In this document: positions 726 through 29,077 of the stretch, in pieces | Position numbering within the stretch: position 1 is the stretch's first letter | Layout of the letters: every line of letters begins with the position of its first letter | From: a virus | Lineage: Duplodnaviria > Heunggongvirae > Uroviricota > Caudoviricetes | DNA length: 64,000 nucleotides | Virus record (IMG/VR): IMGVR_UViG_3300025693_000001 | Strand: one strand, 5' to 3' | Position numbers and translations under genes: made by a program | Notes under the pieces: generated by a model | Database searches by the model: none | What the model saw: the letters and a program-made list of their open reading frames with translations, nothing else | What the model was told of the DNA's origin: nothing

Positions 726-816
726 TGGCGAAAGAAGGAGGATTCGAACCCCAAGCCGGTTAAGGCTCCACATGACTTCCAATCATGGTCAATCACCGGA
801 GACTGAATCATCTTTC
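726..816 (-). tRNA. tRNA-Ser (anticodon GGA), class II with long variable arm, CCA encoded
   Basis: Hand fold of the reverse complement gives a 7-bp acceptor stem (one T-T mismatch), D-loop with GG, anticodon stem CATGA/TCATG with loop TTGGAAG, a 17-nt variable arm, T-loop GGTTCGAATCC, and discriminator G followed by CCA. Confidence 0.7.
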
Positions 817-1274
817 AAAAAATTGGTGTACAGGTCAAGGAATTGAACCTTAGTTACTTGTCGACCACCTACCACCAGCATTGGTGGTACCCGTACGTTG
901 TGTGTTAATATAACCCTTCGCTGTATAACACTTTACCGTTACCGGAATTGCGAATCATATCCAACGGTTGTCCGCTAGCGGTGGCTACGGCAAGAGCTTC
1001 AGTTCTATCCATAAACACACCAAACTGATCAACAAATCCCTGATAACCTTTTTCCGGTTTGCATTCGTGTCCACCAGCTTTAACAGCTTTGATTATATCG
1101 TTCATATTCTTATCGTGGTGTCTAGCGCTCATGATGATGAGATCACCATATTTATTTGCGGCACAGACAACTTTTCGTATCGGTTTCATAATATTTATTA
1201 TACATTAGAGTTCATACAACAATCAACGGTTTTGATTGTTGCGATAAATACAGTACTACATTACGGAGCATATT

Positions 1275-1694
1275 ATGAAATTACTAGATTTAATCGAAGC
1301 AGCAAAACCAATAACATATGATAGAACCAAATATTACAAAAAAGGGTTTTGGTTGTATTCAAAAGAGTGGGATGTTGCAAAAATATTTCTTGCTGATGGT
1401 TGGGGAGAAAAAGTAGCCAAAAAGTTCAATGCTAAGTTCCACAAAGATTTTACTGTTGGTGGTGAAACCCCTCTTGTTTCAGGACTGAGTCCCGATATGG
1501 AACAAAAAATAGCACAATACATCAGTACTAGTAAATTTCACACCGCAACTGCATCATATGGTAAAAAAGGAACATCATCTGTTAGAAAACCTGGCATTGC
1601 CACTCGTGCTCAAATCAAATATATAGCTAAAGATACCCTGGATAAATTGTTATATATCCCATCAGAAGGTGTAATATATATCGGTAAATCATAA
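1275..1694 (+). CDS. Hypothetical protein (139 aa), the only plus-strand gene inside the first tRNA array
   Basis: ATG preceded by GGAG 8 nt upstream; a clean ORF lying between two minus-strand tRNAs. Confidence 0.5.
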   Translation: MKLLDLIEAAKPITYDRTKYYKKGFWLYSKEWDVAKIFLADGWGEKVAKKFNAKFHKDFTVGGETPLVSGLSPDMEQKIAQYISTSKFHTATASYGKKGTSSVRKPGIATRAQIKYIAKDTLDKLLYIPSEGVIYIGKS

Positions 1695-1697
1695 AAC

Positions 1698-1790
1698 TGG
1701 AGGAAGGAGGAGGATTCGAACCCCAAACCCGATCAAGGGTTCCACATGATTTCAAGTCATGGTGCGTCACCGGAGAAGCAATCACCTTCC
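1698..1790 (-). tRNA. tRNA-Ser (anticodon TGA), class II, CCA encoded
   Basis: Paralogue of the 726-816 tRNA with the same T-arm (GGAGGATTCGAACCCC). Anticodon stem CATGA/TCATG with loop CTTGAAA gives TGA; long variable arm present. Confidence 0.7.
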
Positions 1791-2175
1791 AATTGTTATT
1801 TCTTATTATCCTCAGGTTTCTTCTTTTTTGCAACCTGATTCAATTGTTCTTTTTGTTTGGTGGAATCCACATTACGTTCCCACTCTGCCAATCTTACTGG
1901 ATCTATCATCCGATAACCACACAAGCATTTGGTCTGATGTCATCATCCGTCCAACCATTTGCGCGTTCTTCGGCGGTTAACGTCATTTTCCCAACTTCAA
2001 TACCATCGTCGGTTTCTTCGTACCCTTCAACATCGATCCAATCCAGGTTAACAAATCGATATCCATTACCTTCATCATCGATTGATGTGATGACCGGAAG
2101 GTCTTGTGGAAGTTCTTGTAATCGTTTAACTACATCTGCTACGGTTGTGTCTGTCATGGTTATCCTTATTTAATT

Positions 2176-2253
2176 TGGTACCCCACCTCGGAGTCGAACC
2201 GAGATACACGAACTTCTAAAGATCGTAGCTTTACCAATTTGCATTAGCGGGGC
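2176..2253 (-). tRNA. tRNA with anticodon TAG (Leu-type anticodon) but a short variable loop, A73, CCA encoded
   Basis: Acceptor GCCCCGC/GTGGGGT pairs fully (with G-U); T-arm CTCGG-TTCGACT-CCGAG; anticodon loop TTTAGAA with one mismatch in the stem. Confidence 0.6.
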
Positions 2254-2726
2254 ATTATGTTACGTTTTTTATTCCCATATGTGTTTGTTTGACTGTGACA
2301 ATTCGGACACAAAAAACGTAAATTGTGTTCACTGTTATTGTTCCAATTCCCATCTCTATGGTCAATATGTAGTGTAATTGGTTTTCCGTTGTATATGGAT
2401 CCAACATGACACCCTTCACACTCTACGAGTCTACCAACTTCTACCAACGCCCGCATTAGTTGGTTGCGGCGAGGTCGATTCATCGATTCTGTATACACCA
2501 ATATATCAGCCGCGGTTTTCTTCGTGGTCTTTGGTATTCCACGCGCCCAAGCTTGTCCAGTAAAATGGGTTCGATCTATACCCAACCTATCGATTTTGTT
2601 GCGTAAACAACATATAGATCCACCAACGATTTTGGTATATCCCAACAATCTCATCGTTTGAGATATACTAACTGATTTGGCTACGGCGGCAGCTAGTTCC
2701 CGATCCGTATATTTATATTTGCTCAT
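2244..2726 (-). CDS. HNH homing endonuclease (paralogue A)
   Basis: C-terminal ...ITLHIDHRDGNWNNNSEHNLRFLCPNCHSQTNTYGNKKR is an HNH/His-Me finger; about 90% nucleotide identity to 3925-4404 over roughly 150 nt. The more likely start is the internal ATG at 2726; the ORF track extends to 2744. Confidence 0.75.
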   Translation of the reverse strand: MSKYKYTDRELAAAVAKSVSISQTMRLLGYTKIVGGSICCLRNKIDRLGIDRTHFTGQAWARGIPKTTKKTAADILVYTESMNRPRRNQLMRALVEVGRLVECEGCHVGSIYNGKPITLHIDHRDGNWNNNSEHNLRFLCPNCHSQTNTYGNKKRNIMPR

Positions 2727-2786
2727 GTGGTATTTATGGTACATGTTATTAGTAACATGACCTCTACCAATTGGGTCACGGGAGCA

Positions 2787-2996: not shown

Positions 2997-3652
2997 TTAA
3001 TACCCATATATTTAACAGCAAGTTCAATATCTTCTTTATCCACACCATGCTGCTCAATTATGGTGGCCAGATCATCCATGAATGGAGCTAGTGAGTTGAT
3101 TTTATCATCCCAAGCATCATACCGAGATTGCATTTGTGATTCCATATATTCCATATTAGTACGCTATCCATCTGTGTGGTTTTGGTCTAAATCTACCAAA
3201 TGACACACCATGCATCTTGGCAAATCGACTACGTTTAGCTACTCTAGCTGTTGAGAAAATGCTTTGTCTGTTGTATTTAACTCGCAAGCGAGCTTGTACC
3301 CCACCCATCATCCCTAATATGTGTAGTAAGTCGGAATCCACTTCTCTACGAATCTCTTCAGCGAGTGTGGATGCCAACTCATCTTCCAGATTGAGTCCAT
3401 ATTGAACACTTAACATATCGCGATCTTCCACAGTGTACGTTGCTTTTAGCACCCGTAACATTGGTGGATAACCAAATAGCGCTCGAATTGCGTTTATTAA
3501 ACTTTTTAGGGTATTGTTCATTTGGTTTTTTGTAGTTCGCATATGATGTGGTTGCATGTTGTGGTGATGCTAAGCAATATACCTTCCATTTCCACTAACA
3601 GTTTTGATACATCGTTGTTGTTGAATTTCATCCTACCACTCTCATTGTTGTT

Positions 3653-3729
3653 TGGTACCTGACCTCAGAGTCGAACTGAGAATCACCAAATTTTGAATCT
3701 GGTTGCTTTACCAATTAGCATAGTCAGGC
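3653..3729 (-). tRNA. tRNA with anticodon CAA (Leu-type anticodon), class-I shape, A73, CCA encoded
   Basis: Fully paired acceptor (GCCTGAC/GTCAGGT), D-stem TGCT/AGCA with loop AATTGGTAA, anticodon stem CCAGA/TTTGG with loop TTCAAAA, T-loop TTCGACT; paralogue of the 2176-2253 tRNA. Confidence 0.6.
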
Positions 3730-3924: not shown

Positions 3925-4404
3925 TTAGGACTTGGTTCGTTTTTTATTACCATAGTTATCAGTTTGGCTGTGACAATTCGGACACAAAAAGCGTAAATTA
4001 TCAGCAGTGTTATTACGCCAATTACCATCTTTATGATCGATTTGTAATAGTAGTGGTTTGTTGTTGTATGTGTCAAATACTAAACACTCCTCACACTGAA
4101 CCGATCTGCCGACATCTACTAAAGCGCGAAATAGTTGGTATCGCTGTGTTCGTCTGGTTGAGTTGTGGGTATGTATCAGTATATCCGCAGTACATTTCTT
4201 TTTATTGCTAGATGTTCCCTTTGCCCACGATTTGCCCGTGAAGTGTGATCGATCGATACCAAGCCTATCCAGTCGGTTACGAAAACAACAAACAGACCCT
4301 CCTTCTATTTTCTCGTATCCTAGCGCTCGCATCGCACCAGATAAACTATACGATGCTGTCACCGCTTCTGTTATTTCTTCTGTCGTGAATTTGTATTTAG
4401 TCAT
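3925..4404 (-). CDS. HNH homing endonuclease (paralogue B)
   Basis: ...LLQIDHKDGNWRNNTADNLRFLCPNCHSQTDNYGNKKR; collinear with the 2244-2744 protein along its whole length. Confidence 0.75.
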   Translation of the reverse strand: MTKYKFTTEEITEAVTASYSLSGAMRALGYEKIEGGSVCCFRNRLDRLGIDRSHFTGKSWAKGTSSNKKKCTADILIHTHNSTRRTQRYQLFRALVDVGRSVQCEECLVFDTYNNKPLLLQIDHKDGNWRNNTADNLRFLCPNCHSQTDNYGNKKRTKS

Positions 4405-4472
4405 GGTGTATTTATGTCATACCCAATTGTTGAGTATTTACACCTTTACTAGTTTGCCTACAGCGACATTTG

Positions 4473-4544
4473 TGTTCTCGAGGGGAGTCGAACCCCCATT
4501 CACAGATTGAAAGTCTGTTGACCTAACCATTAGTCGACGAGAAC
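4473..4544 (-). tRNA. tRNA-Glu (anticodon TTC), no encoded CCA
   Basis: Acceptor CGAGAAC/GTTCTCG; anticodon stem ACAGA/TCTGT with loop CTTTCAA; T-arm GGGGG-TTCGACT-CCCCT. Confidence 0.65.
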
Positions 4545-4549
4545 ATGTT

Positions 4550-4627
4550 TGGTACTCCCAGTCGGATTCGAACCGACACATAAACTGATTTTAAGTCAGC
4601 CACCTCTACCAATTGGGTTATGGGAGC
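4550..4627 (-). tRNA. tRNA with anticodon TAA (Leu-type anticodon), class-I shape, A73, CCA encoded
   Basis: Acceptor GCTCCCA/TGGGAGT; anticodon stem GCTGA/TCAGT with loop CTTAAAA; T-arm GTCGG-TTCGAAT-CCGAC. Confidence 0.6.
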
Positions 4628-4969: not shown

Positions 4970-5554
4970 TTAATTTTTTAAGTGTCGTATACTGCTTGCG
5001 TTTTTCCATTTGGTTATATATTCATCAATTGTTGGTTGAACCAACTCACGAAACCTACTGTGGACATAAGCATGATGGGTTGGGCACATTGGTATCAAAT
5101 TACTCGGATCGTTGTTGCTGTGATTACCATCGTTGTGATGTACAGCCACTATGTTGGTTTCCCCACACACCACACAACTTTTGTCGTGATAAGCAAAACA
5201 CAACGTTTGATAACGATTCCCCTGAAAGTTACCATTATTCAATCCAGTGCGGAAGTGTTTATTAGAACAACTACGACTACAAGTACCTTTTGACGTTTTG
5301 TAGTTCTTTACTGGTTTTGAGCATACCACACACCGCATTAAATTTGTTGGATTTAAAAAACACAACCGTTCATGATTCGTTATATTTCCGATTGTAGTGG
5401 CATGGAAACAGTATCGGCAACGATACTTCGTTTGATTCACATCACCCCAACTACCACTCATGTGGCTCACAAACGATCGTAAGTTTTTATAAACGCGAGC
5501 GTTGTGGGGGCTTGTGTATGTGCCATCCTTGTTTTTGTGAATATCATATTTCAT
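4970..5554 (-). CDS. HNH endonuclease
   Basis: ...VAVHHNDGNHSNNDPSNLIPMCPTHHAYVHSRF HNH motif plus several N-terminal CxxC pairs. Confidence 0.7.
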   Translation of the reverse strand: MKYDIHKNKDGTYTSPHNARVYKNLRSFVSHMSGSWGDVNQTKYRCRYCFHATTIGNITNHERLCFLNPTNLMRCVVCSKPVKNYKTSKGTCSRSCSNKHFRTGLNNGNFQGNRYQTLCFAYHDKSCVVCGETNIVAVHHNDGNHSNNDPSNLIPMCPTHHAYVHSRFRELVQPTIDEYITKWKNASSIRHLKN

Positions 5555-5558
5555 TTAG

Positions 5559-5631
5559 TCTCTCTGGCGGGATTTGAACCCACAATAAAACGTCCCAAAC
5601 GTTTCATGTTACCAGATTACATTACAGAGAG
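5559..5631 (-). tRNA. tRNA-Pro (anticodon TGG), no encoded CCA
   Basis: Acceptor CTCTCTG/CAGAGAG; D-stem ATGT/ACAT; anticodon stem AAACG/CGTTT with loop TTTGGGA; T-loop TTCAAAT. Confidence 0.65.
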
Positions 5632-5718
5632 AAAGATGATTGCTAATCAGAAAGAGGCGCGCATTATTGATTAGCATATCAAATTCGACATCACCACGTT
5701 AATGGTGTGCCTTGCCTT

Positions 5719-5787
5719 TTGTGCTAGGAGGAATCGAACCTCCGTCCCTCGCCCAATGCGAGTCCCTTACCATTAGAATATAGCAGA
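5719..5787 (-). tRNA. tRNA-like element (possibly degenerate; Gln-TTG or Pro-TGG anticodon if functional)
   Basis: Perfect T-arm GGAGG-TTCGATT-CCTCC and an acceptor pairing with one mismatch, but only 69 nt and no clean anticodon or D-arm in the hand fold. Confidence 0.35.
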
Positions 5788-5844: not shown

Positions 5845-5930
5845 TGGTGGATCCGGTAGGAATCGAACCTACAATCTCATAAGAGCACTGGGTTACAGCC
5901 AGCTAAGCACACCACCTGCTCAACGAATCC
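5845..5930 (-). tRNA. tRNA-Tyr (anticodon GTA), class II, CCA encoded
   Basis: Acceptor GGATTCG/CGGATCC; anticodon stem GCTGG/CCAGT with loop CTGTAAC; 14-nt variable arm; T-arm GTAGG-TTCGATT-CCTAC. Confidence 0.7.
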
Positions 5931-5945
5931 ATGGTGTTATTTTTG

Positions 5946-6018
5946 CGGAACAGACGGGAGTTGAACCCGCACTTTCTTCCTTGACAGGGAAGTGCACTAC
6001 CAGTTATGCTACTGCTCC
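5946..6018 (-). tRNA. tRNA-Asp (anticodon GTC), no encoded CCA
   Basis: Acceptor GGAGCAG/CTGTTCC; D-stem GCAT/GTGC; anticodon stem CTTCC/GGAAG with loop CTGTCAA; T-loop TTCAACT. Confidence 0.7.
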
Positions 6019-7544: not shown

Positions 7545-8075
7545 TTATATTACTTTGTTGCCGTGACCAACTTGCATCAAGTCAGCAGCAAACTTATCCA
7601 TTTTAGTTGGGCTATCAGCCATGCCTTCCGCTTTAGCAAGGTGCTGTTCTGTTGTACCTTTGAATCTAAACGACTTAATTAAACTAATAAGTGCAGTCTT
7701 TTTAGCGTCACCTGTAGCTGCCCACACTTTTTGTGCTGCTGCATCTAGTTGCTTGAAGTCACCACCTTTTTTTGCTTCCACCAATATGTATTTCGTTGGT
7801 GTGTGATGTTCTATTTCCGCTTCTGTAATACCAGCTAATTCCATTATCCGGTTTTGCGTCAAATGGTGGTCATCCCCAATATCTGGGTTAACACTTTCCG
7901 ATATTGCTGTAGGTGCGTTTACGGCGCTTTGTTCTTCGGTTGCTTCGATTAAATGGCGATCACCTGATTCCGTGATCCCAGCTAACTCTTTTAATCTATC
8001 TTGTTCCATTATTTTACTTCCTGCATATAGCTTTTTAGTGAACGAGTAGTTCCACCATTGGTTAAAAACTTCCAC
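7545..8075 (-). CDS. Hypothetical protein with internal tandem repeat (RLKELAGITES... / RIMELAGITEAE...)
   Basis: ORF with a repeated ELAGITE motif; overlaps the start of the next gene. Confidence 0.35.
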   Translation of the reverse strand: MEVFNQWWNYSFTKKLYAGSKIMEQDRLKELAGITESGDRHLIEATEEQSAVNAPTAISESVNPDIGDDHHLTQNRIMELAGITEAEIEHHTPTKYILVEAKKGGDFKQLDAAAQKVWAATGDAKKTALISLIKSFRFKGTTEQHLAKAEGMADSPTKMDKFAADLMQVGHGNKVI

Positions 8076-9553
8076 ACATCGTTGGGGATTTTGTGTAGCA
8101 TAGGTCCCATTAGTGTTTGTGCAAATATTTGTGCTTCTTTGAAATCGTGTATAGTTCCAGCTTTTAATTTATCATGTAAGTCTTCGAACGCGTTCGCCAA
8201 GTCGTTATAAAAATTGGCAGCATCACGATTAGATGAGTCCAACCGTTTGGCTTCTTTTCGAGCTTGATCGATTTCAGTTTTCAACTGGCTAGTGATCTCT
8301 GCTGGGATTTTCATCTTGTTCGATTGATCGTCTTGCTTTGTATCCAACTGGCTTGGGCTTTCGTCGTTATTTGTTCCACGTTTATCCCATACCTGTTCAT
8401 CGTTGGCACTACCATCTGTAACATTTACCGGCTTATCTTTGTCTTCTTCGTAGTTAGTATATTTGTTGTCAACGTAATAATGCATAGACTCTTTCACGTG
8501 TCCTTTGAAATCGAACGAACCGAATTTATGCGTTTGACCAGCTACACGTAGTTTTTTGGCTAATTCATCATCTTTATCCAACTCAACGTCATAGAAATCA
8601 TCCGATGCGTGGCGTGATGGTTGATCTTTAAAAAAGCTACCATTCGGTTTGGCTTCACTTTTGATGGTACCGTTACCCATCGATGTGCGAACACGATCAC
8701 CGACTTCATATTTACCATTCGATGCACCCTCAGTAACAGCCTCTTCTTTGTTTTCTTTTTTTGGTGTATCTGTGGATGAAGTTGATTGTGCTTTTGAATT
8801 TTTATAATTGGATGACGTCAACACATAATCTTCGATTGGTGACAACGACCCACCAGCACGTGCTTTTTGGTCAGCTTTTTTCAATAGTGCATCTTTTTCT
8901 TTTTGTTCCATGGCATCTAGTTTTTTGGCCATACGAGAGTCATTTGATGTCGTAGCTTCGGAGTTGGATTTAATTGAAATGATTAACCCCTTACCCCCTT
9001 TCATTTGTGCTAGTCTAGCTTTTGCTTTATCTTCTGCCTCTTGACGAGTATCAGCGATAATATCAAAACCATCCGTATCACGATGCTTCACTTTTACTGT
9101 CCAACGAGACTCGCTCAGTTGTTCATTTTCATCCAGACTCATTTCGGAATGGAATGCAGATGACTCTTCTTCCTCAGCCTTTGCTTTTGCGGCTTGTTTC
9201 TCAGCTTTTAGGTGAGTCTGTTGGTCTTTGTCAAACGCATCCAGCAAGTGTATCAGTCCAGTACTACCATTATCACCTTCTAACACATCTTCCAATTCAG
9301 CGATCATGTGTGGAATATCTCCACCAAAATCAGTAGCTGGAATTTTGTCTAATGCTTTGATTGCATTTTGTAGATGTTTGATCGCACTTTTTAATCCAGC
9401 AACTTTACCGGTTAGTGACTTCTGGTCTTTTGCTGTTAAGTCTGATCGACGCAGTGGTGTTTTTCTAGCCTCTGTTACGGCAAGTCGTTCTAAAGAAGGA
9501 TCCATTCTGATACCAGAAAGTAATCTCATTTTGTTAAGTTCATGCATGTGCAT
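8009..9553 (-). CDS. Large (514 aa) low-complexity K/E/D-rich protein
   Basis: Long ORF with a charged low-complexity central region; no recognisable catalytic motif. Confidence 0.45.
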   Translation of the reverse strand: MHMHELNKMRLLSGIRMDPSLERLAVTEARKTPLRRSDLTAKDQKSLTGKVAGLKSAIKHLQNAIKALDKIPATDFGGDIPHMIAELEDVLEGDNGSTGLIHLLDAFDKDQQTHLKAEKQAAKAKAEEEESSAFHSEMSLDENEQLSESRWTVKVKHRDTDGFDIIADTRQEAEDKAKARLAQMKGGKGLIISIKSNSEATTSNDSRMAKKLDAMEQKEKDALLKKADQKARAGGSLSPIEDYVLTSSNYKNSKAQSTSSTDTPKKENKEEAVTEGASNGKYEVGDRVRTSMGNGTIKSEAKPNGSFFKDQPSRHASDDFYDVELDKDDELAKKLRVAGQTHKFGSFDFKGHVKESMHYYVDNKYTNYEEDKDKPVNVTDGSANDEQVWDKRGTNNDESPSQLDTKQDDQSNKMKIPAEITSQLKTEIDQARKEAKRLDSSNRDAANFYNDLANAFEDLHDKLKAGTIHDFKEAQIFAQTLMGPMLHKIPNDVWKFLTNGGTTRSLKSYMQEVK

Positions 9554-10571: not shown

Positions 10572-11207
10572 TTATAAAGCCACCAATCCAACTAAACAGA
10601 TCAACACCAACGTCAACCAGTAAAAAAATGTGGTAGCGTCACCAATTCGCTTTCCGTCACTATACGAGACTTCTTTGCGTTTCCCACCAGAAGATGATTT
10701 ATCGTAATACACCACCTGTTCGAATAAAAACAAACGTCTATAACAATAAATCCAAGCTGGTACCATAAACGTGAGCCAACTAAAACCAAAAATGACCCCT
10801 AACAAATCCTGCCCAAGATAGTTCCAAGCAATGATGAACATGGTAAACATACCAACCCTACTTTCGGAAAAATCATTAACAGCCATCCCTGTTTTTTTAG
10901 CAACATCGACAATACCATCACCAACAGCATCTATTAATGCTGTCCATTCGCGAACTTCATTAACTTTTGGAACGATTGTTTCCGGTACTGCTTTGTTTGC
11001 TGCTGCTAAGTTTGCTGCTTGTAGAACTATCTCCGCTCGTTGTGCATCTGATAACCCCTCAGCGATTGTTATATTTGATCCACCATATGCCGTAGTGGTC
11101 ATGGTGAATAGTAGTATTGCGAAAATGTATTTCATTGTGTTTCCCATTATATTAAAAAAGATGTTAGTATCGTCTACGTGATCTAAAAAGATCAACATCA
11201 TTAACAT
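10572..11207 (-). CDS. Integral membrane protein
   Basis: Several hydrophobic helices. Confidence 0.4.
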   Translation of the reverse strand: MLMMLIFLDHVDDTNIFFNIMGNTMKYIFAILLFTMTTTAYGGSNITIAEGLSDAQRAEIVLQAANLAAANKAVPETIVPKVNEVREWTALIDAVGDGIVDVAKKTGMAVNDFSESRVGMFTMFIIAWNYLGQDLLGVIFGFSWLTFMVPAWIYCYRRLFLFEQVVYYDKSSSGGKRKEVSYSDGKRIGDATTFFYWLTLVLICLVGLVAL

Positions 11208-12261: not shown

Positions 12262-12667
12262 AGTTGTTACCTATTGATTTGTTGAAAGAACGTAAAGTAT
12301 ACCCTAAAGTGGGATGGAGTGTCAAGCGTGACCGAGGAACTGCTTAACCTGAACACTAGATAGCACACTGTGTCTAACGAACGATGGGTGTGCACGCATG
12401 TATTCGTTTTGATGGTTCAGCAAGTCATCTGCTAGATTACTCGCAACTTCAAGCGATGATCGATCAATAACACCGTCGCTGATGTGGGCCCGAATGAATC
12501 GGTTGGTACTCAACCCATTGCAGCACAATAGGTCGAATATGATAGTACCATTAAAACCAACCGCCTTCAAATCTTGTCCAATTGTGTTAAACTCATGGAC
12601 GGGATTAATTCCAGGTGTGGCGGTACATATAACGGTTAGTGCATTGACCTGCACTAACCGCAAATCG

Positions 12668-13138
12668 TTACTTGAGTGGATGCTCTTCATTGTCTTTTAG
12701 GTTGTTGTGATTTAAGTGGACTTGTTTCCAGAATTCCCGACGGTACTTAGTCATGGCCACCAATGCAATAAGCCACCAAATACCTGTGAACCAAAACCCC
12801 GATCCCAATCCTATGATACCTACTATACCTGAGGTATACAACAGCAAAGTGGCTAACCATTGCGTGGATGGTGTTATTGTGGTTTCGTTGGCGGAGTCAT
12901 GACTAGCTTGCACCACAGCAGCACCATCATCGACGAACGATGAGATTGTGAAAATGCATGCAAGTAACATGAGTAGCAATCCCCATATCCACATGACATT
13001 ACCAAAAATGGTAGCAATCCCAACGAGCCAGTTTGGCAATGGGTGAATGGAACCACCCATGTTTAATGCTGATGGATCGTACATGAATGTGAATATTGCT
13101 ACTACTTGTAGAGCTATTGATGTTATAATATGTTTCAT
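12668..13138 (-). CDS. Integral membrane protein (about 4 TM)
   Basis: Hydrophobic helices across the whole ORF. Confidence 0.4.
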   Translation of the reverse strand: MKHIITSIALQVVAIFTFMYDPSALNMGGSIHPLPNWLVGIATIFGNVMWIWGLLLMLLACIFTISSFVDDGAAVVQASHDSANETTITPSTQWLATLLLYTSGIVGIIGLGSGFWFTGIWWLIALVAMTKYRREFWKQVHLNHNNLKDNEEHPLK

Positions 13139-13718
13139 TTGGTTTTGTGTATTGTGTAAGTTAGTGGTGCAGGCTCAAATTTGCTGTGTTCGTTGTGGTA
13201 TTTGAGCATGGCATATAAAACGGATAATTGTGAATAATCAACCATGATTGTGTTACTATCACCAACAGTGATGTTAATACCACTACCATCATCATGGAAT
13301 GTACCTGCGGTGGTACCTTTGATGTGGTCATGCCACCCCGATAGGTATCCGTAAGTAACTTCAAATCGTTGGTTCCAAAGAACTTCCAACCCACCTTGCT
13401 CGTTTGCTGTTACCTCACAATCATAATCGGAGTAATCCCCGTGTTGTTTGTCGGTAATAGTAATGGAACGCTTCCGCTTTTTACATGCTACGGTGGCTGG
13501 TTTGCATCTGAAACAATCGACAATCGATTCATCTTCATCGAAGATGTATGCAATTTTTCGTGAATTAGGATTAATGCACACTCCAACCACCGTGTTTTGT
13601 GTATTAGATGACTTAAACGGTTTACCTGATCGTTTAACGACTGCGGTTCCTATTGCTGCAGATGCACTAGCCATAGCAGCCAAGTATTCTGATTTGTTTG
13701 TTATTTCTGGTTCTCTCA

Positions 13719-22001: not shown

Positions 22002-22436
22002 TCAGTCGCTTAGAAATAGAAAAGCTTTGTGATATTTTTCCAAACGGGTGAAGTCTTTTGCTCTAATACCTTTCATGCGAAGAATATCCGAGTTGTGTCG
22101 TAAGTCAGCTTTTTTGATGTCGCGTGCGCGAAAATCTAGGTGTGGCGATGCGTAAACTCGCTTGATGTAATCATCGTACGTCTCATCTTTCAGGTGTGTG
22201 ACAGCTTCAACAACCATCACAGTTTCCGGTTCAAATCCTTCGTTGATCAATCGTTCATAATACCACTCAGGACAATCTTCAATCAAGTCATGCATAACAG
22301 CTGCTATACGTCCTTGTGTGTCATTTTCTGGAATTTGATACATAACTGCCAAGCAGTGTAATATGTATGGTTGCCCACCTTTATCGAATTTACCTTCGAA
22401 TGCCTGTGCGACGATGGCTATAGCTTTATCAAGCAT
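22002..22436 (-). CDS. HD-domain small alarmone hydrolase (RelA/SpoT hydrolase-domain-like)
   Basis: GGQPYILHCLAV ... AAVMHDLIEDCP reproduces the SpoT hydrolase H...HD...ED signature (compare GePYitHpLaVA...AALLHDvvEDT). Confidence 0.7.
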   Translation of the reverse strand: MLDKAIAIVAQAFEGKFDKGGQPYILHCLAVMYQIPENDTQGRIAAVMHDLIEDCPEWYYERLINEGFEPETVMVVEAVTHLKDETYDDYIKRVYASPHLDFRARDIKKADLRHNSDILRMKGIRAKDFTRLEKYHKAFLFLSD

Positions 22437-24068: not shown

Positions 24069-24143
24069 TGGTAGTCCCGTACGGAATCGAACCGTATACG
24101 GCCTCTGTGTAAAAGAGGTTCCTCGCCATTCGGACTCGGGACT
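24069..24143 (-). tRNA. tRNA-Val (anticodon TAC), CCA encoded
   Basis: Perfect acceptor AGTCCCG/CGGGACT; anticodon stem CCTCT/AGAGG with loop TTTACAC; T-arm TACGG-TTCGATT-CCGTA. Confidence 0.65.
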
Positions 24144-24689: not shown

Positions 24690-24765
24690 TGGTGGACCGC
24701 CTGGGATTTGAACCCAGTACCCTTCGATTAAAAGTCGAATGCTCTGCCGATTGAGCTAGCGATCC
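24690..24765 (-). tRNA. tRNA-Lys (anticodon TTT), CCA encoded
   Basis: D-stem GCTC/GAGC; anticodon stem TTCGA/TCGAA with loop CTTTTAA; T-arm CTGGG-TTCAAAT-CCCAG. Confidence 0.7.
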
Positions 24766-24776
24766 ATTGTTCCCTC

Positions 24777-24975: not shown

Positions 24976-24990
24976 AAAATTGTTATTTTG

Positions 24991-25065
24991 CTCAACAGGG
25001 AGGAGTCGAACCCCCAATGTCCGGTAGGTGTCAAGCTGCGCATAGTTGCTGACACGTTCTGCTGA
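24991..25065 (-). tRNA. tRNA-like element, fold unresolved (possible pseudogene)
   Basis: Canonical T-arm GGGGG-TTCGACT-CCTCC and an acceptor pairing TCAGCAG/CTGTTGA, but no clean D-arm or anticodon arm; a 7-bp hairpin with a 14-nt loop sits where the anticodon arm should be. Confidence 0.3.
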
Positions 25066-26249
25066 TCTATCTAAATTTGTTTTTTTCACAGTCGCTAAAA
25101 TTTATCCACTTTACGTATTTGTGTTTACATTTTGGACACACAACCATATCAGGTTTTTGTCTCCATCGAAATGAGCATTCACTGCAATGATATATCGCTT
25201 CCATTTATTACCACCAAAAGTACCTATAAATTAAACCGTCGGTGAAGATCTCCTTCACTGACTTGTTGATTTTTTATCGCTAATGCAGCTCTTGCATCCT
25301 CGGCCGCTAACAACAATTTTACTGATTCCAGATGTTCTGTTGTCAATTCGATATCACGCATATCTGATAACGCTTTTTTGTACTTCTTGTTTGTAACCCC
25401 AAAATCTCTGGCCATGTTGCCCTTAAAACTCTCAAAAACTAATACTATGCAATGTATAATCGTCACCAGCTTTGATTCGCTCAGCTTGTGCCAATATGAC
25501 TGCTTGCTCTTTGGTTAACGCCCAAACTTCAACCTTTTGGGGGTCATATGATGAATCAGAAAACCACACTATAAATTGTATATGTTTCATTTAGTTATTT
25601 ATGAAAAGTCTAGGCCAAGAAAGTTAAATGTCTTGGCAATCATTTTTTTGATGTTAGCTTTAGTACCCTGTTCTACTTGGGTGACAATATCTGTAACATT
25701 TGCAACCATCACTTGTTCGCACCATTGGTGCATATCTGCATCTACCGATCGAAGAGACATGCTATATGTCCTCGTATCGAATTGTTGCTGATCGTCGGCG
25801 GTTTGAAAGACAACAACCCGTAAAACAGGATTGTGTTGTTCGGATCTATCAATCTCACTCTCTACTATAAACATTACCAATTATCCACGTCTGTTAAATC
25901 AAGTTTAGCACCACAAGCACACATAACCACAACTACAGTACCCAACCCCGTTGGAGTGAAGCTGTACGTTAGTCTACCACCTATTGCACCACAAGGATTA
26001 GAAGCTGTGCTCCCGTCATCGTAAAATTTGCATGTTTTGTTGTGATCTGCTAACCAATCATTAATCAGTAGCGTATCTGATGGTGACATATCAAATCCGG
26101 AGATTGTTCCTGGTTCTTTGTCACGATCTTTAGATACTGTGAACACCGTGGTGTTGCTATCATTCGGATCCAGCTCAAATACCGGCCACTTAAAAAAGTT
26201 GCCTATTCCAGGTTTTCTATCAGACATCATGCATCCTCGTTGTTTTTTG

Positions 26250-26317
26250 TGGAGGTACGGAGAGTTGAACTCCGCCCGGTTGGTTGCAAACCATCCAGTC
26301 TAACCGTATACACCCCC
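26250..26317 (-). tRNA. Short tRNA-like gene (68 nt; anticodon possibly TGC)
   Basis: T-arm CGGAG-TTCAACT-CTCCG and acceptor GGGGGTG/TACCTCC, but a truncated D-arm and a mismatch in the anticodon stem. It lies inside ORF 26227-26427, which is therefore probably spurious. Confidence 0.4.
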
Positions 26318-26655: not shown

Positions 26656-26730
26656 TGGCTCCCACTCGAGGAATCGAACCTCGCTAAATCTCCTTAACAG
26701 GGAGGTGCCACACCTTGCGGCCCAGTGGGA
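26656..26730 (-). tRNA. tRNA-Asn (anticodon GTT), CCA encoded
   Basis: Perfect acceptor TCCCACT/AGTGGGA; D-stem GCCG/TGGC; anticodon loop CTGTTAA; T-arm CGAGG-TTCGATT-CCTCG. Confidence 0.65.
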
Positions 26731-27200
26731 ATAATCTATTCTCGATGTAGTTCAGCTAAGATTGTTAATCGTTGTTCAGCTAAGTCACCGTGTTCTATTT
26801 TCGTTGTTGCTTCTTGTCCAGTACCTGGATATTTTATTTTAATCAAAATGGCAGCATCTTCACGCCACAATTTTATAATGGTTGGCTTCGGGTCCAACAC
26901 ATCCCATTGGTTAACAATAAACGCCTCATACGAGTTGTATGAGAAGTCCGGAACTGGTAACGTATTATCAAACATTTCTTCTATGGAGTCAACATCAAAC
27001 TTGATAATCAGCTTGCCATTCTTACGAATCTCAACATCGTTATCCGTCTGGATTATCTCAACACCATCCCTTTTCATCCCAACCAATCCATATATGGCGT
27101 TGGTAAGTTCTTTGAAATTGTTGATACCCAGGAATCCTAGGAATCCTATTACAGCTTGCGAAATTGTTAATGTACCTATCATTATTATCCTTTTTGTTTG

Positions 27201-27272
27201 TAGCAGATTTGGGATTCGAACCCAAAACTTCCCACTTATCAGGTGAGCACTCTACCAATTGAGTTAATCCGC
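27201..27272 (-). tRNA. tRNA-Ile (anticodon GAT), no encoded CCA
   Basis: D-stem ACTC/GAGT with loop AATTGGTA; anticodon stem CTCAC/GTGGG with loop CTGATAA; T-arm TTGGG-TTCGAAT-CCCAA. Confidence 0.65.
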
Positions 27273-27959
27273 TATTATTAAAATTAGGTGGAAGAAACTA
27301 ACTTCCACAGTTGTGATGACCACTCGATTTCTGATGTCCCTGATACATACCCAAAGTCGATTGGACTGCCAGCACTCGTGTGCGTTTTTGTAGCTTCATC
27401 TTTCTTTGCTTGCAATTTCTTTCTAGTTTTAGCTTGTATGTTGATGGTGCGTGAAGTCTCGCTCCACTCACCACCACTATACCCACCTCTAGTTATCACA
27501 CCATATGTCATATACATTATTGTCGCACCATTGTTAGTGCTGAGATTTGGGAAAAATCAGGGATTAAGTTACCATTATAAATCAATCTCCAGGTTCCATC
27601 ATCAAGTTCATCCAAATGTATCATGTTCTTTTGTGTTTTTACCGCAGTTGCTTTTGATAGCTCCAACACAATATCTGTTCCAGTTAGTTCAATCGACCGT
27701 TTGTCTTTCATTATATTACCTTTACGAACGTGCCATCTTTAACAGCTTTGCGGATGTATCTCATCAACAGTATTGCCTTCTCTTCGTGGTGAAGGGTAGC
27801 ATCCTGTACATCATCCAATGGAACCGGAAATGAATACTCAATGTTTTCACCTGGAACCAATACACTATAATACACTACTTGGTGTCTATAGTATAGCATG
27901 TTAGCTACATTATTTTTTACAATATCTTTAATACTAAAAGTCATGTTACTTCCTTATTG

Positions 27960-28036
27960 TGGAGCTCCAGTACGGAATCGAACCGTATTCCCAACTTTAC
28001 AAGAGTTGACATCATCCAGATAAATGCTTCAAGAGC
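27960..28036 (-). tRNA. tRNA-Thr (anticodon TGT), CCA encoded
   Basis: Anticodon stem CAACT/AGTTG (perfect) with loop CTTGTAA; T-arm TACGG-TTCGATT-CCGTA; one mismatch in the acceptor stem. Confidence 0.6.
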
Positions 28037-28448
28037 TTATTGTTATTAAATTGTTGTGTATCTTTCTGTGGCAATTAGCACACACGATAACACACTTTTG
28101 TATTTCTTCCAGTAACACCCCCCATCCACATTTCGTGGCAGCGCTGCTAATGTTGAATTTTTTTTGTGTCGGATCTAAGTGGTGGAAATCTAAGCAACAC
28201 AATTCATCTTCACCACAACACACACACCCTGATTGCATCTTCAACGACGTTATGTATGCCTGGCGTTGTTTTGCATACGAATATCGCATGTTGTGATATT
28301 TCTTTGGGTTTTTAGCCCTGGATCCTTTGGTGCTTACATCAGCACACGATTTACAACTAGATTGGTACCCATCCTTCATTCTAACAGCTTTGTAGAATTC
28401 AGTTAACGGTTTATCACTATCACACTTAGTACATTTTTTCATGCCCAT
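28029..28448 (-). CDS. HNH endonuclease
   Basis: CTKCDSDKPLTEF...CKSC...LDFHHLDPTQK...CANCHRKIHN. The ORF track extends to 28487; the likely start is one of the internal ATGs (MGMKKC). Embedded in the second tRNA array. Confidence 0.6.
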   Translation of the reverse strand: MGMKKCTKCDSDKPLTEFYKAVRMKDGYQSSCKSCADVSTKGSRAKNPKKYHNMRYSYAKQRQAYITSLKMQSGCVCCGEDELCCLDFHHLDPTQKKFNISSAATKCGWGVLLEEIQKCVIVCANCHRKIHNNLITISS

Positions 28449-28491
28449 ATTTACGAGTCGAACCATCACCCACAAATACAAATCCATTGTG

Positions 28492-28564
28492 AGCCTTAGA
28501 CTGGAGTCGAACCAGCAACATCTAAATTACGAAATTAGAGCTCTACCATTGGAGCTACTAAGGC
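28492..28564 (-). tRNA. tRNA (anticodon read as CGT; identity uncertain), no encoded CCA
   Basis: Perfect acceptor GCCTTAG/CTAAGGC, D-stem GCTC/GAGC, T-arm GCTGG-TTCGACT-CCAGT; anticodon stem CTAAT/TTTAG with a 31-39 mismatch. Confidence 0.55.
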
Positions 28565-29000
28565 TTATTATCACACCACATATACCAACCGTCATTATCA
28601 AAATGTAGGTTAGGATGTAGTGAGCTTAAAGGTTCCTTTTTCATAACGATTATGGAACCACATTCCGCAACACCATGTTCGATTACTCGTCTGTGTTGCT
28701 TGTTTATTTTTGAAATTATCCGTATTTTCTTTTTCATATATCCGTATATAGTGAAAACCGTTTCCGACTTTGATTAACGAGTGTTTGGCACGGTAAAACA
28801 CCTTTCAGACTTCACTCGAGTACTTGCGATGCCACAGGCGTACTAACCTGCCTTATAATCCTTACTATAAAAGGTTGCGTCTATCTTCCGCACAAGGTTG
28901 CGGTGGGAATGTTCGTAGTAGCTTAGGCTACGATCTAGGCTCCTTTAAGTTGACCGCGTGTTACACATCATCAACCCATCCTCGTGCATGTTGTTCTTAT

Positions 29001-29077
29001 TGGTGGAGCTGGGGGGATTCGAACCCCCGACCCTCTACTTGCAAGGCAGATGCTCGTTCCAGCTGAGCTACAACCCC
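29001..29077 (-). tRNA. tRNA-Ala (anticodon TGC), CCA encoded
   Basis: 5' GGGGTTGTAGCTCAGCTGG..., D-stem GCTC/GAGC; anticodon stem TCTGC/GTAGA with loop CTTGCAA; T-arm GGGGG-TTCGAAT-CCCCC. Confidence 0.7.

What the first reader, a model, noticed from the sequence alone, without database searches (positions are those of the whole stretch)
726..29077. Two tRNA arrays where 8 of 19 genes lack an encoded CCA, coupled to a phage CCA-adding enzyme, RNA ligase 1 and a YqeY-domain protein
By hand fold, 11 of the 19 tRNA or tRNA-like genes encode their own 3' CCA. The other 8 (Glu, Pro, Asp, Ile, the CGT tRNA and the three tRNA-like elements) do not. The window also encodes a class II CCA-adding enzyme (32956-34050), a T4 RnlA-like ligase (13719-14831) and a GatB/YqeY protein (36959-37405). 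Together these make a self-contained tRNA maturation and repair toolkit, likely aimed at host anticodon nucleases. No polynucleotide kinase (Pnk) gene is visible in this window.
Basis: partly seen in the sequence, partly recalled or inferred. Interest (0 to 1): 0.55.

Follow-up and report, generated by a model that had tools for sequence, protein, structure and literature searches.

The report
Jumbo-phage tRNA arrays with optional CCA
An uncultivated giant phage carries about 20 tRNA genes, 8 without the 3' CCA tail, plus its own CCA-adding enzyme and an RNA ligase; this gene set is already known from other giant phages, but here the CCA tail is gained and lost unusually often between close relatives.

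Summary
ARAGORN, Rfam and motif searches recover all 19 elements with the stated split: 11 encode CCA and 8 do not. They also find a 20th conserved tRNA-like gene (824-896) that encodes CCA. The three proteins are confirmed: a CCA-adding enzyme that lacks the HD domain, a T4 RnlA-family ligase, and a YqeY-domain protein. No Pnk is present in the window.

The same gene set is already described for jumbo phages (Iyer 2021) and is annotated in Vibrio phage 2.275.O. A phage Cca is neither necessary nor sufficient for CCA-less tRNAs:
- T4 has no Cca, and 4 of its 8 tRNAs lack CCA.
- XacN1 has a Cca, and all 28 tRNAs in the stretch scanned encode CCA.

RnlA without an end-healing enzyme cannot repair classical anticodon-nuclease breaks.

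Two things are new. In four related metagenomic phages, 11 of 14 syntenic tRNA families differ in CCA status, including pairs 96-97% identical. CCA-less genes almost always keep C74 and change C75 (N73-C-A-A-A; 30 of 33). This fits trimming back to C74 followed by addition of CA, but that is inferred, not shown.

Verdict: a new member of a known kind, of moderate interest.

The parts
726..816 (-). tRNA-Ser(GGA), long variable arm, ends G-CCA (CCA encoded)
   Evidence: Rfam tRNA-Sec model 33.9 bits. ARAGORN -ps80 structure. Sequence.
It has a 7-bp acceptor stem, a T-arm, discriminator A and an encoded CCA. The D and anticodon regions are replaced by a 6-7 bp hairpin plus a conserved GUCGACAA stretch.
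   Evidence: T-loop motif and fold. A counterpart sits in relative L013 at 10748-10818, with the compensatory change C4:G69 to G4:C69.
1698..1790 (-). tRNA-Ser(UGA), ends U-CCA (CCA encoded)
   Evidence: Rfam tRNA-Sec model 46.5 bits. ARAGORN -ps80.
2176..2253 (-). tRNA-Leu(UAG), 78 nt with a short variable loop, A-CCA encoded
   Evidence: ARAGORN. Rfam 38.1 bits. Sequence.
3653..3729 (-). tRNA-Leu(CAA), 77 nt, A-CCA encoded
4472..4544 (-). tRNA-Glu(UUC), no CCA; discriminator A is followed by CAAA
   Evidence: ARAGORN. Rfam 64.3 bits. 3' end read.
4550..4627 (-). tRNA-Leu(UAA), 78 nt, A-CCA encoded
5558..5631 (-). tRNA-Pro(UGG), no CCA; A followed by CUAA
   Evidence: Rfam 59.6 bits..
5719..5787 (-). 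tRNA-like element (Gln-UUG-like) with a C2·C71 mismatch and a non-canonical anticodon loop lacking U33. No CCA (A followed by AAAG). No counterpart was found in relatives.
   Evidence: Rfam tRNA 41.6 bits. ARAGORN -ps80. Absent between Tyr and Pro in L011 and L013.
5845..5930 (-). tRNA-Tyr(GUA), A-CCA encoded
5945..6018 (-). tRNA-Asp(GUC), no CCA; G followed by CAAA
   Evidence: Rfam 67.6 bits.. The orthologue in L013 (89% identical) ends G-CCA.
24069..24143 (-). tRNA-Val(UAC), A-CCA encoded
   Evidence: ARAGORN. The orthologue in L008 is 86% identical and shows compensatory anticodon-stem changes on inspection of the two sequences.
24690..24765 (-). tRNA-Lys(UUU), A-CCA encoded
   Evidence: Rfam 68 bits..
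24990..25065 (-). tRNA-like element with good acceptor and T arms and a degenerate core. No CCA (G followed by CAAA).
   Evidence: T-loop motif. ARAGORN -ps80. A counterpart sits at the same place in L008 (19587-19664) with an identical acceptor stem and a G-CAGA tail.
26247..26317 (-). Atypical tRNA-Ala(UGC)-like gene, 71 nt with a reduced D arm. It has G3:U70, A73, U33 and a UGC anticodon. No CCA (A followed by CAAA).
   Evidence: Rfam tmRNA acceptor/T-arm hit, 29.1 bits. ARAGORN. The L008 counterpart is called tRNA-Ala at default threshold and ends A-CCA. Compensatory changes occur in the T stem (A:U to G:C) and the anticodon stem (G:C to A:U).
26656..26730 (-). tRNA-Asn(GUU), G-CCA encoded
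   Evidence: ARAGORN. Rfam 29.1 bits.
27200..27273 (-). tRNA-Ile(GAU), no CCA; A followed by CAAA
   Evidence: Rfam 65.5 bits.. Orthologues in L008 and L005 end A-CCA.
27960..28036 (-). tRNA-Thr(UGU), U-CCA encoded
   Evidence: ARAGORN. The orthologue in L008 is 96% identical but ends U-CAG.
28491..28564 (-). tRNA-Thr(CGU), no CCA; U followed by CACA
   Evidence: Rfam 55.4 bits..
29001..29077 (-). tRNA-Ala(UGC), A-CCA encoded
   Evidence: Rfam 63.1 bits..
32956..34050 (-). Class II tRNA nucleotidyltransferase (Cca), 364 aa. The head and neck resemble proteobacterial Cca. The HD phosphohydrolase motif is deleted.
   Evidence: PF01743 64.9 bits and PF12627 29.5 bits. PRK10885 301 bits over positions 1-211 of 409; PcnB only 70 bits. 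Motifs GGAVRD, DID, RRDLT and DDPVR present. 48% identical to Limnohabitans Cca up to the HD region, which is missing in the whole phage clade.
13719..14831 (-). T4 RnlA-family RNA ligase 1 with the tRNA-specific C-terminal domain
   Evidence: TIGR02308 310 bits against a cut-off of 242. PF09511 plus PF20819. KSDG adenylylation motif. 43% identical to Vibrio phage 2.275.O RnlA.
36959..37405 (-). GatB/YqeY-domain protein, 148 aa, function unknown
   Evidence: PF09424 47.3 bits. Syntenic in relative L005. Homologues in 26 phage records, most from genomes over 200 kb.
22002..22436 (-). Small alarmone hydrolase (SpoT-type HD_4 domain). It is a possible further member of a tRNA 3'-end care set (inference).
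   Evidence: PF13328 31.8 bits. PDB 7smg (p)ppApp hydrolase, E 1e-22. Small alarmone hydrolases restore tRNA whose CCA end was pyrophosphorylated by toxSAS toxins (bioRxiv 10.1101/2021.04.30.441581).
3925..4404 (-). HNH endonuclease inside array 1. A second one lies at 4970-5554.
   Evidence: Weak, sub-threshold Pfam HNH-family hits (PF01844 21.2 bits against a cut-off of 21.4; PF13392, PF13391). Parallels SegB in the T4 tRNA cluster and the heg genes in the T5 tRNA region.
48405..49202 (-). Calcineurin-type metallophosphoesterase. It is the only conceivable 3'-end-healing candidate in the window, and its role is unassigned.
   Evidence: PF00149 39 bits. phrog_1649, E 9e-50. No PDB relative by sequence. 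Not orthologous to the Metallophos gene inside the array of relative L011.

Best explanation
The window is the accessory translation and counter-defence region of an uncultivated jumbo phage. Its longest known contig is about 325 kb.

Twenty tRNA and tRNA-like genes sit in two co-oriented arrays, interspersed with small ORFs and homing endonucleases, as in T4 and T5. Twelve encode their 3' CCA. Eight do not, and five of those eight are fully canonical tRNAs.

Proposed pathway for the CCA-less tRNAs:
1. They are transcribed with an A-rich trailer of the form N73-C74-A-A-A.
2. RNase P cuts the 5' end.
3. Host 3' exonucleases trim the trailer back to C74.
4. A CCA-adding enzyme adds C75 and A76. 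This is the phage's HD-less Cca, the host enzyme, or both.

Because CCA can always be supplied after transcription, the encoded C75-A76 is under little constraint and flips between close relatives. C74 is retained.

RnlA is a separate RNA-repair gene. On its own it can seal only 3'-OH/5'-phosphate breaks. YqeY is a recurrent companion of phage tRNA sets with unknown function.

What is shown: the genes, their families, CCA presence or absence, the flipping between relatives, and C74 retention. What is inferred: the processing order, which Cca acts, and any defence target.
For: **Genes and 3' ends:**

**CCA-less tRNAs are canonical:** 55-68 bits on the Rfam tRNA model.

**Phage identity.**
- The exact Cca protein occurs on 4 JGI contigs, the longest 324,905 bp.
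- There is no DNA match in INPHARED.
- The best protein matches are jumbo phages.

**Cca conservation.** The catalytic motifs are conserved in the phage clade and the HD segment is deleted.

**Synteny.** The order ligase ... NMNAT-NAMPT-YqeY ... Cca-Band7 ... tRNA array is conserved in relatives L005 and L008.

**Flipping of CCA status.**
- 11 of 14 syntenic same-anticodon families are mixed CCA/non-CCA among the window, L005, L008, L011 and L013.
- Thr-UGU: 96% identical, CCA versus CAG.
- Asp: 97% identical, CCA versus AAT.
- Pro: 89% identical, CUA versus CCA.

**C74 retention.**
- 30 of 33 CCA-less genes keep C74, and position 75 is A in 23 of them.
- Binomial p = 2e-15 against base composition and 1.3e-3 against one random hit in three positions.
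- 22 of 23 well-formed canonical cases keep C74, against 3 of 7 in cyanophage S-PM2.

**Exonuclease logic.** RNase T prefers A-rich trailers and is blocked by a 3'-terminal C (PMC5824355).

**Precedent.** T4 has 4 of 8 tRNA genes without CCA and no cca gene of its own in the region examined.
Against: - The host is unknown, so nothing shows that it has RNase T-type trimming or whether its own tRNA genes encode CCA.
- XacN1 has a Cca and all 28 tRNAs in the stretch scanned encode CCA. A phage Cca therefore need not serve maturation.
- T4 shows that a host Cca can suffice.
- Sequence cannot separate CCA-adding from A-adding or CA-adding specificity. PDB matches to A-adding, poly(A) and CCA enzymes all lie between E 1e-13 and 1e-17.
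- C74 retention could partly reflect shared ancestry (the counts are not phylogenetically independent) and A-biased drift.
- The S-PM2 control is small.
Confidence: 0.6

Rival explanations
1. Cca, RnlA and YqeY form one self-contained tRNA maturation and repair system whose main purpose is to reverse cleavage by host anticodon nucleases, as the T4 Pnk-Rnl1 pathway does against PrrC.
For: - RnlA is a full member of the T4 family, including the tRNA-specific C-terminal domain.
- The arrays include Lys-UUU, Tyr, Asn and Asp, which I recall (own knowledge, not tested here) as known nuclease targets.
- Jumbo phages are thought to combine tRNA provisioning with RNA repair (PMC7824862).
- Other anti-RNase and anti-defence genes are nearby: an RnlB-like antitoxin, a DarG-like Macro protein, NADAR and NAD salvage genes.
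Against: - No Pnk or other 5'-kinase is in the window, in 10 kb beyond its high end, or in any related locus.
- Without end healing, Rnl1 cannot join 2',3'-cyclic-phosphate and 5'-OH ends.
- The Cca has lost the HD phosphoesterase.
- rnlA and cca lie 18 kb apart in different neighbourhoods.
- A CCA-adding enzyme acts at the 3' end, not at the anticodon loop.
- The conserved ORF translationally coupled to rnlA (13135-13722) has no recognisable catalytic family and gave no usable structure.
Confidence: 0.2
2. The phage Cca serves mainly as a counter-defence that rebuilds tRNA 3' ends damaged by host immunity, possibly together with the small alarmone hydrolase. Such damage includes CCA-tail cleavage, tail extension and pyrophosphorylation. 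CCA-less genes are then a tolerated by-product of always having the enzyme.
For: - XacN1 keeps a Cca although all 28 tRNAs in the stretch scanned encode CCA. This argues for a repair role.
- Cas12a3 cleaves tRNA CCA tails as an immune effector, and the authors note that viral tRNAs cannot evade this (PMC12851939).
- toxSAS toxins such as CapRel pyrophosphorylate the CCA end, and small alarmone hydrolases reverse this.
- The window encodes a small alarmone hydrolase 1.6 kb from array 2.
- Iyer et al. assign the phage CCA enzyme to restoring missing 3' nucleotides.
Against: - All of this is by association; no target system is known for this phage or its host.
- The alarmone hydrolase may simply degrade (p)ppGpp or (p)ppApp.
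- This reading does not by itself explain why C74 is kept.
Confidence: 0.25
3. The CCA-less genes and tRNA-like elements are decaying, non-functional copies. Only the CCA-bearing tRNAs matter, for codon supply.
For: - 5719-5787 has an acceptor mismatch, lacks U33 and has no counterpart in relatives.
- 24990-25065 has a degenerate core.
Against: - The five canonical CCA-less tRNAs are among the best-scoring in the window.
- Orthologues retain cloverleaf structure, with compensatory changes.
- The same tRNA family is CCA-less in one phage and CCA-bearing in another, so the CCA-less state does not mark decay.
- Three of the four tRNA-like elements are conserved in position and stems.
Confidence: 0.05

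Closest known systems
Jumbo-phage RNA-repair and tRNA-provisioning repertoire (Iyer et al. 2021, PMC7824862), for example Vibrio phage 2.275.O._10N.286.54.E11 and Xanthomonas phage XacN1
   Same: - tRNA arrays, a class II CCA-adding enzyme, Rnl1, YqeY, Macro and HD proteins, and NAD salvage genes occur together.
- 2.275.O has a tRNA array, Cca, an HD protein, NUDIX, YqeY and Macro within 30 kb. Of 14 tRNAs there, 6 lack CCA, and 5 of the 5 well-formed ones keep C74.
- XacN1 has tRNAs next to a Band-7 protein and a RelA/SpoT-like gene.
   Different: - There is no DNA similarity, and protein identity is only 39-52%.
- All 28 XacN1 tRNAs in the stretch scanned encode CCA.
- No Pnk is seen near rnlA here.
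- The lineage itself is known only from metagenomic contigs.
Bacteriophage T4 tRNA gene cluster
   Same: - Half of the T4 tRNA genes (4 of 8) lack an encoded CCA.
- A homing endonuclease (SegB) sits inside the cluster.
- Two small stable tRNA-associated RNAs (rnaC, rnaD) are present.
- Pro and Gln keep C74.
   Different: - From my own knowledge, T4 encodes no Cca and relies on the host enzyme and RNase BN.
- T4 pairs Rnl1 with Pnk.
- T4 has 8 tRNAs, against about 20 in this window.
Bacteriophage T5 tRNA region
   Same: - tRNAs are interspersed with small ORFs and HNH endonucleases.
- Several 'tRNA-like stable RNAs with unknown functions' are annotated.
- A small 'tRNA amidotransferase' gene (T5.081) lies beside tRNA-Arg; by its name it may be GatB/YqeY-type, which I did not test.
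   Different: - All 22 genuine T5 tRNAs encode CCA (three apparent exceptions are parsing artefacts or a false call).
- I did not check T5 for a Cca; it is not among the 30 Cca tblastn hits listed.
- The tRNA sequences are not specifically related, at 60-74% background identity.
Proteobacterial multifunctional Cca (E. coli type, NCBIfam PRK10885)
   Same: The head and neck are 48% identical to a betaproteobacterial Cca. Motifs A, B and D are intact.
   Different: - The segment of about 45 residues that carries the HD motif is deleted in the whole phage clade. The phosphatase and 2',3'-cyclic phosphodiesterase 'repair' activities are therefore expected to be absent.
- The score is below the equivalog cut-off (301 against 451).
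T4 Pnk-Rnl1 pathway that reverses PrrC anticodon-nuclease cleavage
   Same: The ligase belongs to the same family and has the same two-domain architecture.
   Different: The end-healing partner Pnk is absent from the window and from all related loci examined.

Membership tests
Class II CCA-adding tRNA nucleotidyltransferase | Pol-beta head domain with motif A (GGxVRD ... DxD) | tested here: met
   PF01743 64.9 bits against a cut-off of 23. GGAVRD and DID are present and invariant across the phage clade.
Class II CCA-adding tRNA nucleotidyltransferase | Motif B (RRD) and the nucleotide-templating motif D ([E/D]DxxR) | tested here: met
   RRDLT and DDPVRLLR are present. R89, R90, D91, D141, P142 and R144 are invariant.
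Class II CCA-adding tRNA nucleotidyltransferase | Specificity for adding C-C-A, rather than A only, CC only or poly(A) | not testable with these tools
   The best curated model is Cca (301 bits) and PcnB scores only 70 bits. PDB matches do not discriminate. An enzyme assay is needed.
Multifunctional Cca (addition plus repair, E. coli type) | C-terminal HD phosphohydrolase domain | tested here: not met
   There is no PF01966 hit. The alignment with Limnohabitans Cca ends where the H...HD segment begins, and that segment is deleted in all phage-clade members.
T4 RnlA (RNA ligase 1) family | Curated equivalog score, nucleotidyltransferase domain with the KxDG lysine, and the Rnl1-specific C-terminal domain | tested here: met
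   TIGR02308 310 bits against a cut-off of 242. PF09511 62 bits and PF20819 60 bits. VKSDGS motif.
T4-type tRNA break-repair pathway (Pnk plus Rnl1) | A polynucleotide 5'-kinase/3'-phosphatase partner | tested here: not met
   This applies to the window, 10 kb beyond its high end, and related loci only.
- No P-loop or HAD motif.
- No family hit among the ORFs scanned.
- tblastn with CC2 PseT finds nothing.

The remaining roughly 250 kb of the genome could not be read.
GatB/YqeY domain family | Match to PF09424 above the gathering score | tested here: met
   47.3 bits against a cut-off of 27, covering 139 of 143 profile positions. The family has no established biochemical function.
Canonical elongator tRNA | Cloverleaf with a 7-nt anticodon loop, U33 and a standard D arm | tested here: met
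   Met for 16 genes. Not met for 824-896, 5719-5787 and 24990-25065. Borderline for 26247-26317, which has a reduced D arm but an intact anticodon arm with U33 and the Ala identity pair G3:U70.
Small alarmone hydrolase (RelA/SpoT hydrolase-only) | HD_4 domain and similarity to a solved small alarmone hydrolase | tested here: met
   PF13328 31.8 bits against a cut-off of 27.2. PDB 7smg, E 1e-22, over the full length. Its substrate (alarmone or tRNA 3' pyrophosphate) was not tested.

The most novel reading that the evidence does not exclude
In this phage lineage and in Vibrio phage 2.275.O, CCA-less tRNA genes may follow a selected design, N73-C74 followed by an A-rich trailer. C74 would act as a stop for host 3' exonuclease trimming and protect the discriminator base. 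The phage's HD-less Cca would then add C75-A76. Together with the small alarmone hydrolase, this would form a phage-run tRNA 3'-end maintenance module. That module would also neutralise immunity aimed at the CCA tail (Cas12a3-type cleavage, toxSAS pyrophosphorylation). It would explain why the encoded CCA toggles freely between near-identical orthologues.
Probability: 0.2. Interest if true: 0.6.

Novelty: new member of a known kind. Interest (0 to 1): 0.35.

Why it matters
In itself the window is one more example of a described jumbo-phage repertoire: tRNA provisioning, RNA-end repair enzymes and NAD salvage.

Two comparative observations made here could matter if they hold up. The first is rapid switching of the encoded CCA between orthologous phage tRNAs. 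The second is near-universal retention of C74 in the CCA-less state. Together they give a simple, sequence-readable sign of how phage tRNA 3' ends are processed. They also offer a handle for asking whether phage CCA-adding enzymes exist for maturation, for repair of defence-inflicted damage, or for both. That question has become timely now that immune systems targeting the tRNA CCA tail have been found.

Tried and rejected
1. **Megablast of 25 kb against INPHARED:** no match.
2. **Scans for relatives of Cca.**
   - IMG/VR gave one 42% relative without tRNAs (L001).
   - JGI metagenome contigs gave only a 26-residue fragment.
   - A degenerate pattern from the Ala-like element found nothing in IMG/VR.
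3. **Walking beyond the window to look for Pnk.**
   - Five exact-protein look-ups for low-end genes failed, because the database gene calls differ or the JGI 67.9-kb contig ends at window position 12187.
   - Only 10 kb past the high end could be read, and it holds no Pnk.
   - The 324,905-bp contig itself is not readable with these tools.
4. **The conserved 195-aa ORF translationally coupled to rnlA (13135-13722) as a possible novel end-healing enzyme.**
   - Only 5 homologues exist.
   - There is no Pfam hit, and the only PHROG hits are to families of unknown function.
   - The AlphaFold model has mean pLDDT 41, so no fold search was attempted.
5. **The metallophosphoesterase 48405-49202 as a healing enzyme.** It has no solved relative by sequence and is not orthologous to the Metallophos gene inside the array of L011. 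It is left unassigned.
6. **Shared ancestry of these tRNAs with T5, T4, XacN1 or 2.275.O tRNAs.** Rejected; identity is only at background level, 60-79%.
7. **S-PM2 as a control from a host outside the gammaproteobacteria.** It is usable but small (7 well-formed CCA-less genes). The RefSeq tRNA feature coordinates did not match the sequence.
8. **The automatic discriminator parser** mis-registers tRNAs whose first acceptor pair is mismatched (T5 Gln and fMet, T4 Ile). Those rows were excluded from the 'well-formed' counts.

Full report
**What is in the sequence**

All predicted RNA genes lie on the minus strand, co-oriented with nearly all ORFs.
- ARAGORN at default settings tRNAs.
- Rfam at gathering score, including one ARAGORN misses, 5719-5787 at 41.6 bits.
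- Rfam E-value searches add two long-arm Ser tRNAs through the tRNA-Sec model (730-816 at 33.9 bits; 1702-1790 at 46.5 bits). They also add an acceptor/T-arm match at 26247-26317.
- A T-loop motif search finds 26 sites against 7.2 expected. Relaxed ARAGORN then gives 24990-25065.

**CCA status**

I read the 3' ends directly and with a bracket-structure parser.
- CCA follows the discriminator in Ser-GGA, Ser-UGA, Leu-UAG, Leu-CAA, Leu-UAA, Tyr, Val, Lys, Asn, Thr-UGU and Ala.
- CCA is absent from Glu, Pro, Asp, Ile, Thr-CGU and the three tRNA-like elements.
- The new element 824-896 ends A-CCA.

The five canonical CCA-less tRNAs are among the best-scoring in the window, at 55-68 bits. They are not decayed genes.

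**The proteins**
- 32956-34050 has the PolyA_pol head and RNA-binding domains.
  - Its first 218 residues score 301 bits on the proteobacterial Cca model PRK10885. The PcnB poly(A) polymerase model scores 70 bits.
  - Motifs GGAVRD, DID, RRDLT and DDPVR are present and invariant in its relatives.
  - The segment carrying the HD phosphohydrolase motif of cellular Cca is deleted in the whole phage clade.
- 13719-14831 passes the T4 RnlA equivalog cut-off, 310 against 242 bits. It has the Rnl1-specific C-terminal domain and a KSDG motif.
- 36959-37405 is a YqeY-domain protein.
- No Pnk is present.
  - No ORF has a P-loop or HAD motif.
  - There is no family hit among the 80 window ORFs scanned.
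  - tblastn with a T4-family PseT gives no hit against the window or any related locus.

**What the window comes from**

There is no DNA match to any deposited phage. The Cca and RnlA proteins match jumbo phages best, at 39-52% identity: Xoo-sp13, XacN1, Vibrio phage 2.275.O, and Asteriusvirus- and CBB-like phages. The exact Cca protein occurs on four JGI contigs, the longest 324,905 bp. A 67.9-kb JGI contig overlaps window 12187-64000.

The rest of the window holds typical jumbo-phage conflict genes:
- NAMPT and NMNAT-Nudix.
- An NAD-dependent DNA ligase.
- A DarG-like Macro protein, NADAR and an SNase.
- A small alarmone hydrolase and an RnlB-type antitoxin.
- Homing endonucleases.

**Comparison with what is known**

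Iyer et al. 2021 (PMC7824862) already describe the jumbo-phage RNA-repair repertoire. It comprises tRNA sets, Rnl1/Rnl2/RtcB ligases, Pnk-HAD or other phosphoesterases, the CCA-adding enzyme and NAD salvage.
- Vibrio phage 2.275.O has a tRNA array, Cca, an HD protein, NUDIX, YqeY and Macro in one stretch.
- YqeY homologues occur in 26 phage records, most of them from genomes over 200 kb.
- T5 has a small 'tRNA amidotransferase' gene beside a tRNA. Its tRNA region also holds HNH endonucleases and annotated tRNA-like stable RNAs.
- T4 has SegB plus rnaC and rnaD in its tRNA cluster.

The gene combination is therefore a known kind.

**Is CCA loss coupled to the phage Cca?**

I compared a few genomes.
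- XacN1 has its own Cca, and all 28 tRNAs in the stretch scanned encode CCA.
- 2.275.O has its own Cca, and 8 of 14 encode CCA.
- T4 has no Cca, and 4 of 8 encode CCA.
- T5: I did not check for a Cca. All 22 genuine tRNAs encode CCA.

A phage Cca is thus neither necessary nor sufficient for CCA-less tRNA genes. XacN1 shows that a phage Cca can be kept for reasons other than maturation.

**New comparative evidence**

Homologues of Cca and of the 514-aa ORF at 8009-9553 led to metagenomic contigs of related phages. Gene order is conserved, and so are both arrays.

Of 14 syntenic, same-anticodon tRNA families, 11 are CCA-bearing in one phage and CCA-less in another.
- Thr-UGU is 96% identical between the window (CCA) and L008 (CAG).
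- Asp is 97% identical between L013 (CCA) and L011 (AAU).
- Pro is 89% identical between the window (CUA) and L013 (CCA).

The encoded CCA is therefore evolutionarily labile in this lineage.

The loss is not random. Of 33 CCA-less genes (this lineage, 2.275.O and T4), 30 keep C74. Position 75 is A in 23 and U in 7, giving N73-C-A-A-A. Among well-formed canonical cases in this lineage plus 2.275.O the count is 22 of 23. In cyanophage S-PM2 it is 3 of 7. These counts are not phylogenetically independent, and the control is small.

**Most likely mechanism**

RNase T removes A-rich trailers quickly and is blocked by a 3'-terminal C (PMC5824355). An N73-C74-AAA precursor would therefore be trimmed to tRNA-N73-C74, with the discriminator protected. 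A CCA-adding enzyme would then add C75-A76. With that enzyme always available, from phage or host, C75 and A76 drift while C74 stays. Every step of this pathway is inference. The host is unknown, and the specificity of the phage enzyme cannot be read from sequence.

**RnlA and the anticodon-nuclease idea**

Without a kinase-phosphatase, Rnl1 cannot join the 2',3'-cyclic-phosphate and 5'-OH ends left by PrrC- or RloC-type nucleases. It could seal the 3'-OH/5'-phosphate breaks left by metal-dependent nucleases. A Pnk may lie in the roughly 250 kb I could not read. Aeromonas phage CC2, for example, has pseT 4 kb from its cca. The conserved ORF coupled to rnlA gave no informative family or structure.

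**A 3'-end counter-defence reading**

Cas12a3 cleaves tRNA CCA tails (PMC12851939). toxSAS toxins pyrophosphorylate the CCA end, and small alarmone hydrolases reverse this. The window encodes such a hydrolase at 22002-22436 (PDB 7smg, E 1e-22), close to array 2. A 3'-end maintenance role for Cca plus this hydrolase is attractive. It rests on association only.

**The tRNA-like elements**
- 26247-26317 keeps G3:U70, A73, U33 and a UGC anticodon. Relative to its L008 counterpart it has compensatory changes in the T and anticodon stems, and that counterpart encodes CCA. It is probably a functional, atypical tRNA-Ala.
- 824-896 and 24990-25065 are conserved in position and in their acceptor and T arms, but they lack a normal anticodon arm.
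- 5719-5787 has no counterpart and may be a pseudogene.

**Verdict**

This is a new member of a known kind. The CCA flipping and C74 retention are modest but testable new points.

Noticed in passing
window 12322-12690 (-): A 122-aa ORF matches PF15933 RnlB_antitoxin at 66.6 bits. RnlB is the antitoxin of the RNase LS (RnlA) toxin. A phage-borne copy about 1 kb from the RNA ligase gene would be a Dmd-like anti-toxin device.
   Followed up: no
window 22002-22436 (-): A small alarmone hydrolase (HD_4; PDB 7smg (p)ppApp hydrolase, E 1e-22) lies 1.6 kb from tRNA-Val. Enzymes of this kind can remove the pyrophosphate that toxSAS defence toxins put on tRNA CCA ends.
   Followed up: partly
window 2176-2253, 3653-3729, 4550-4627 (-); L011 15359-15436 and 17428-17502; L013 7020-7097: All Leu-anticodon tRNAs of this lineage are 75-78 nt, with a 5-nt variable loop (class I shape) and A73. 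They lack the long variable arm of bacterial tRNA-Leu. The Leu tRNAs of T4, T5 and XacN1 are 85-87 nt.
   Followed up: no
window 824-896 (-): A twentieth, unlisted tRNA-like gene has a 7-bp acceptor stem, a T arm and an encoded A-CCA. It is conserved in L013 with a compensatory base-pair change, and its core is non-tRNA (a hairpin plus GUCGACAA).
   Followed up: partly
CCA-less tRNA genes in the window, L008, L011, L013 and L020 (Vibrio phage 2.275.O): CCA-less genes keep C74 and change C75, mostly to A (N73-C-A-A-A): 30 of 33 overall. In cyanophage S-PM2 the count is 3 of 7.
   Followed up: partly
window 3156-3557 (-): A 133-aa ORF between two Leu tRNAs has a short match to the T4 Gp23 major capsid protein family (PF07068 positions 148-195, E 1e-6). 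It looks like a capsid-protein fragment in the tRNA array.
   Followed up: no
window 726-816 and 1698-1790 (-): ARAGORN draws Ser-GGA (726-816) with an 8-bp acceptor stem and a 4-bp T stem. Both Ser tRNAs were reported by Rfam only through the tRNA-Sec model, and default ARAGORN misses both.
   Followed up: no
window 35724-36167, 37865-39289, 40054-41091, 59664-60218 (-): A DarG-like Macro protein, NAMPT, bifunctional NMNAT-Nudix and NADAR are present. Together they form an NAD+-salvage and ADP-ribose counter-defence set, syntenic in relatives L005 and L008.
   Followed up: no
window 13135-13722 (-): A 195-aa ORF overlaps the rnlA stop codon. The same arrangement is conserved in L011. It has only 5 homologues in 5.8 billion proteins and no recognisable family, and the AlphaFold model has pLDDT 41.
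   Followed up: yes
L011 15640-16407: In one relative, a Metallophos phosphoesterase gene sits inside tRNA array 1, between two Leu tRNAs. It is not orthologous to the window's Metallophos gene at 48405-49202.
   Followed up: partly
L021 (NC_006820 S-PM2, 146001-196000): The RefSeq tRNA features (16 in this stretch, inside a giant 'short tail fiber' CDS) do not coincide with the 9 tRNAs ARAGORN finds there. The record's tRNA coordinates appear to be out of register with the sequence.
   Followed up: no
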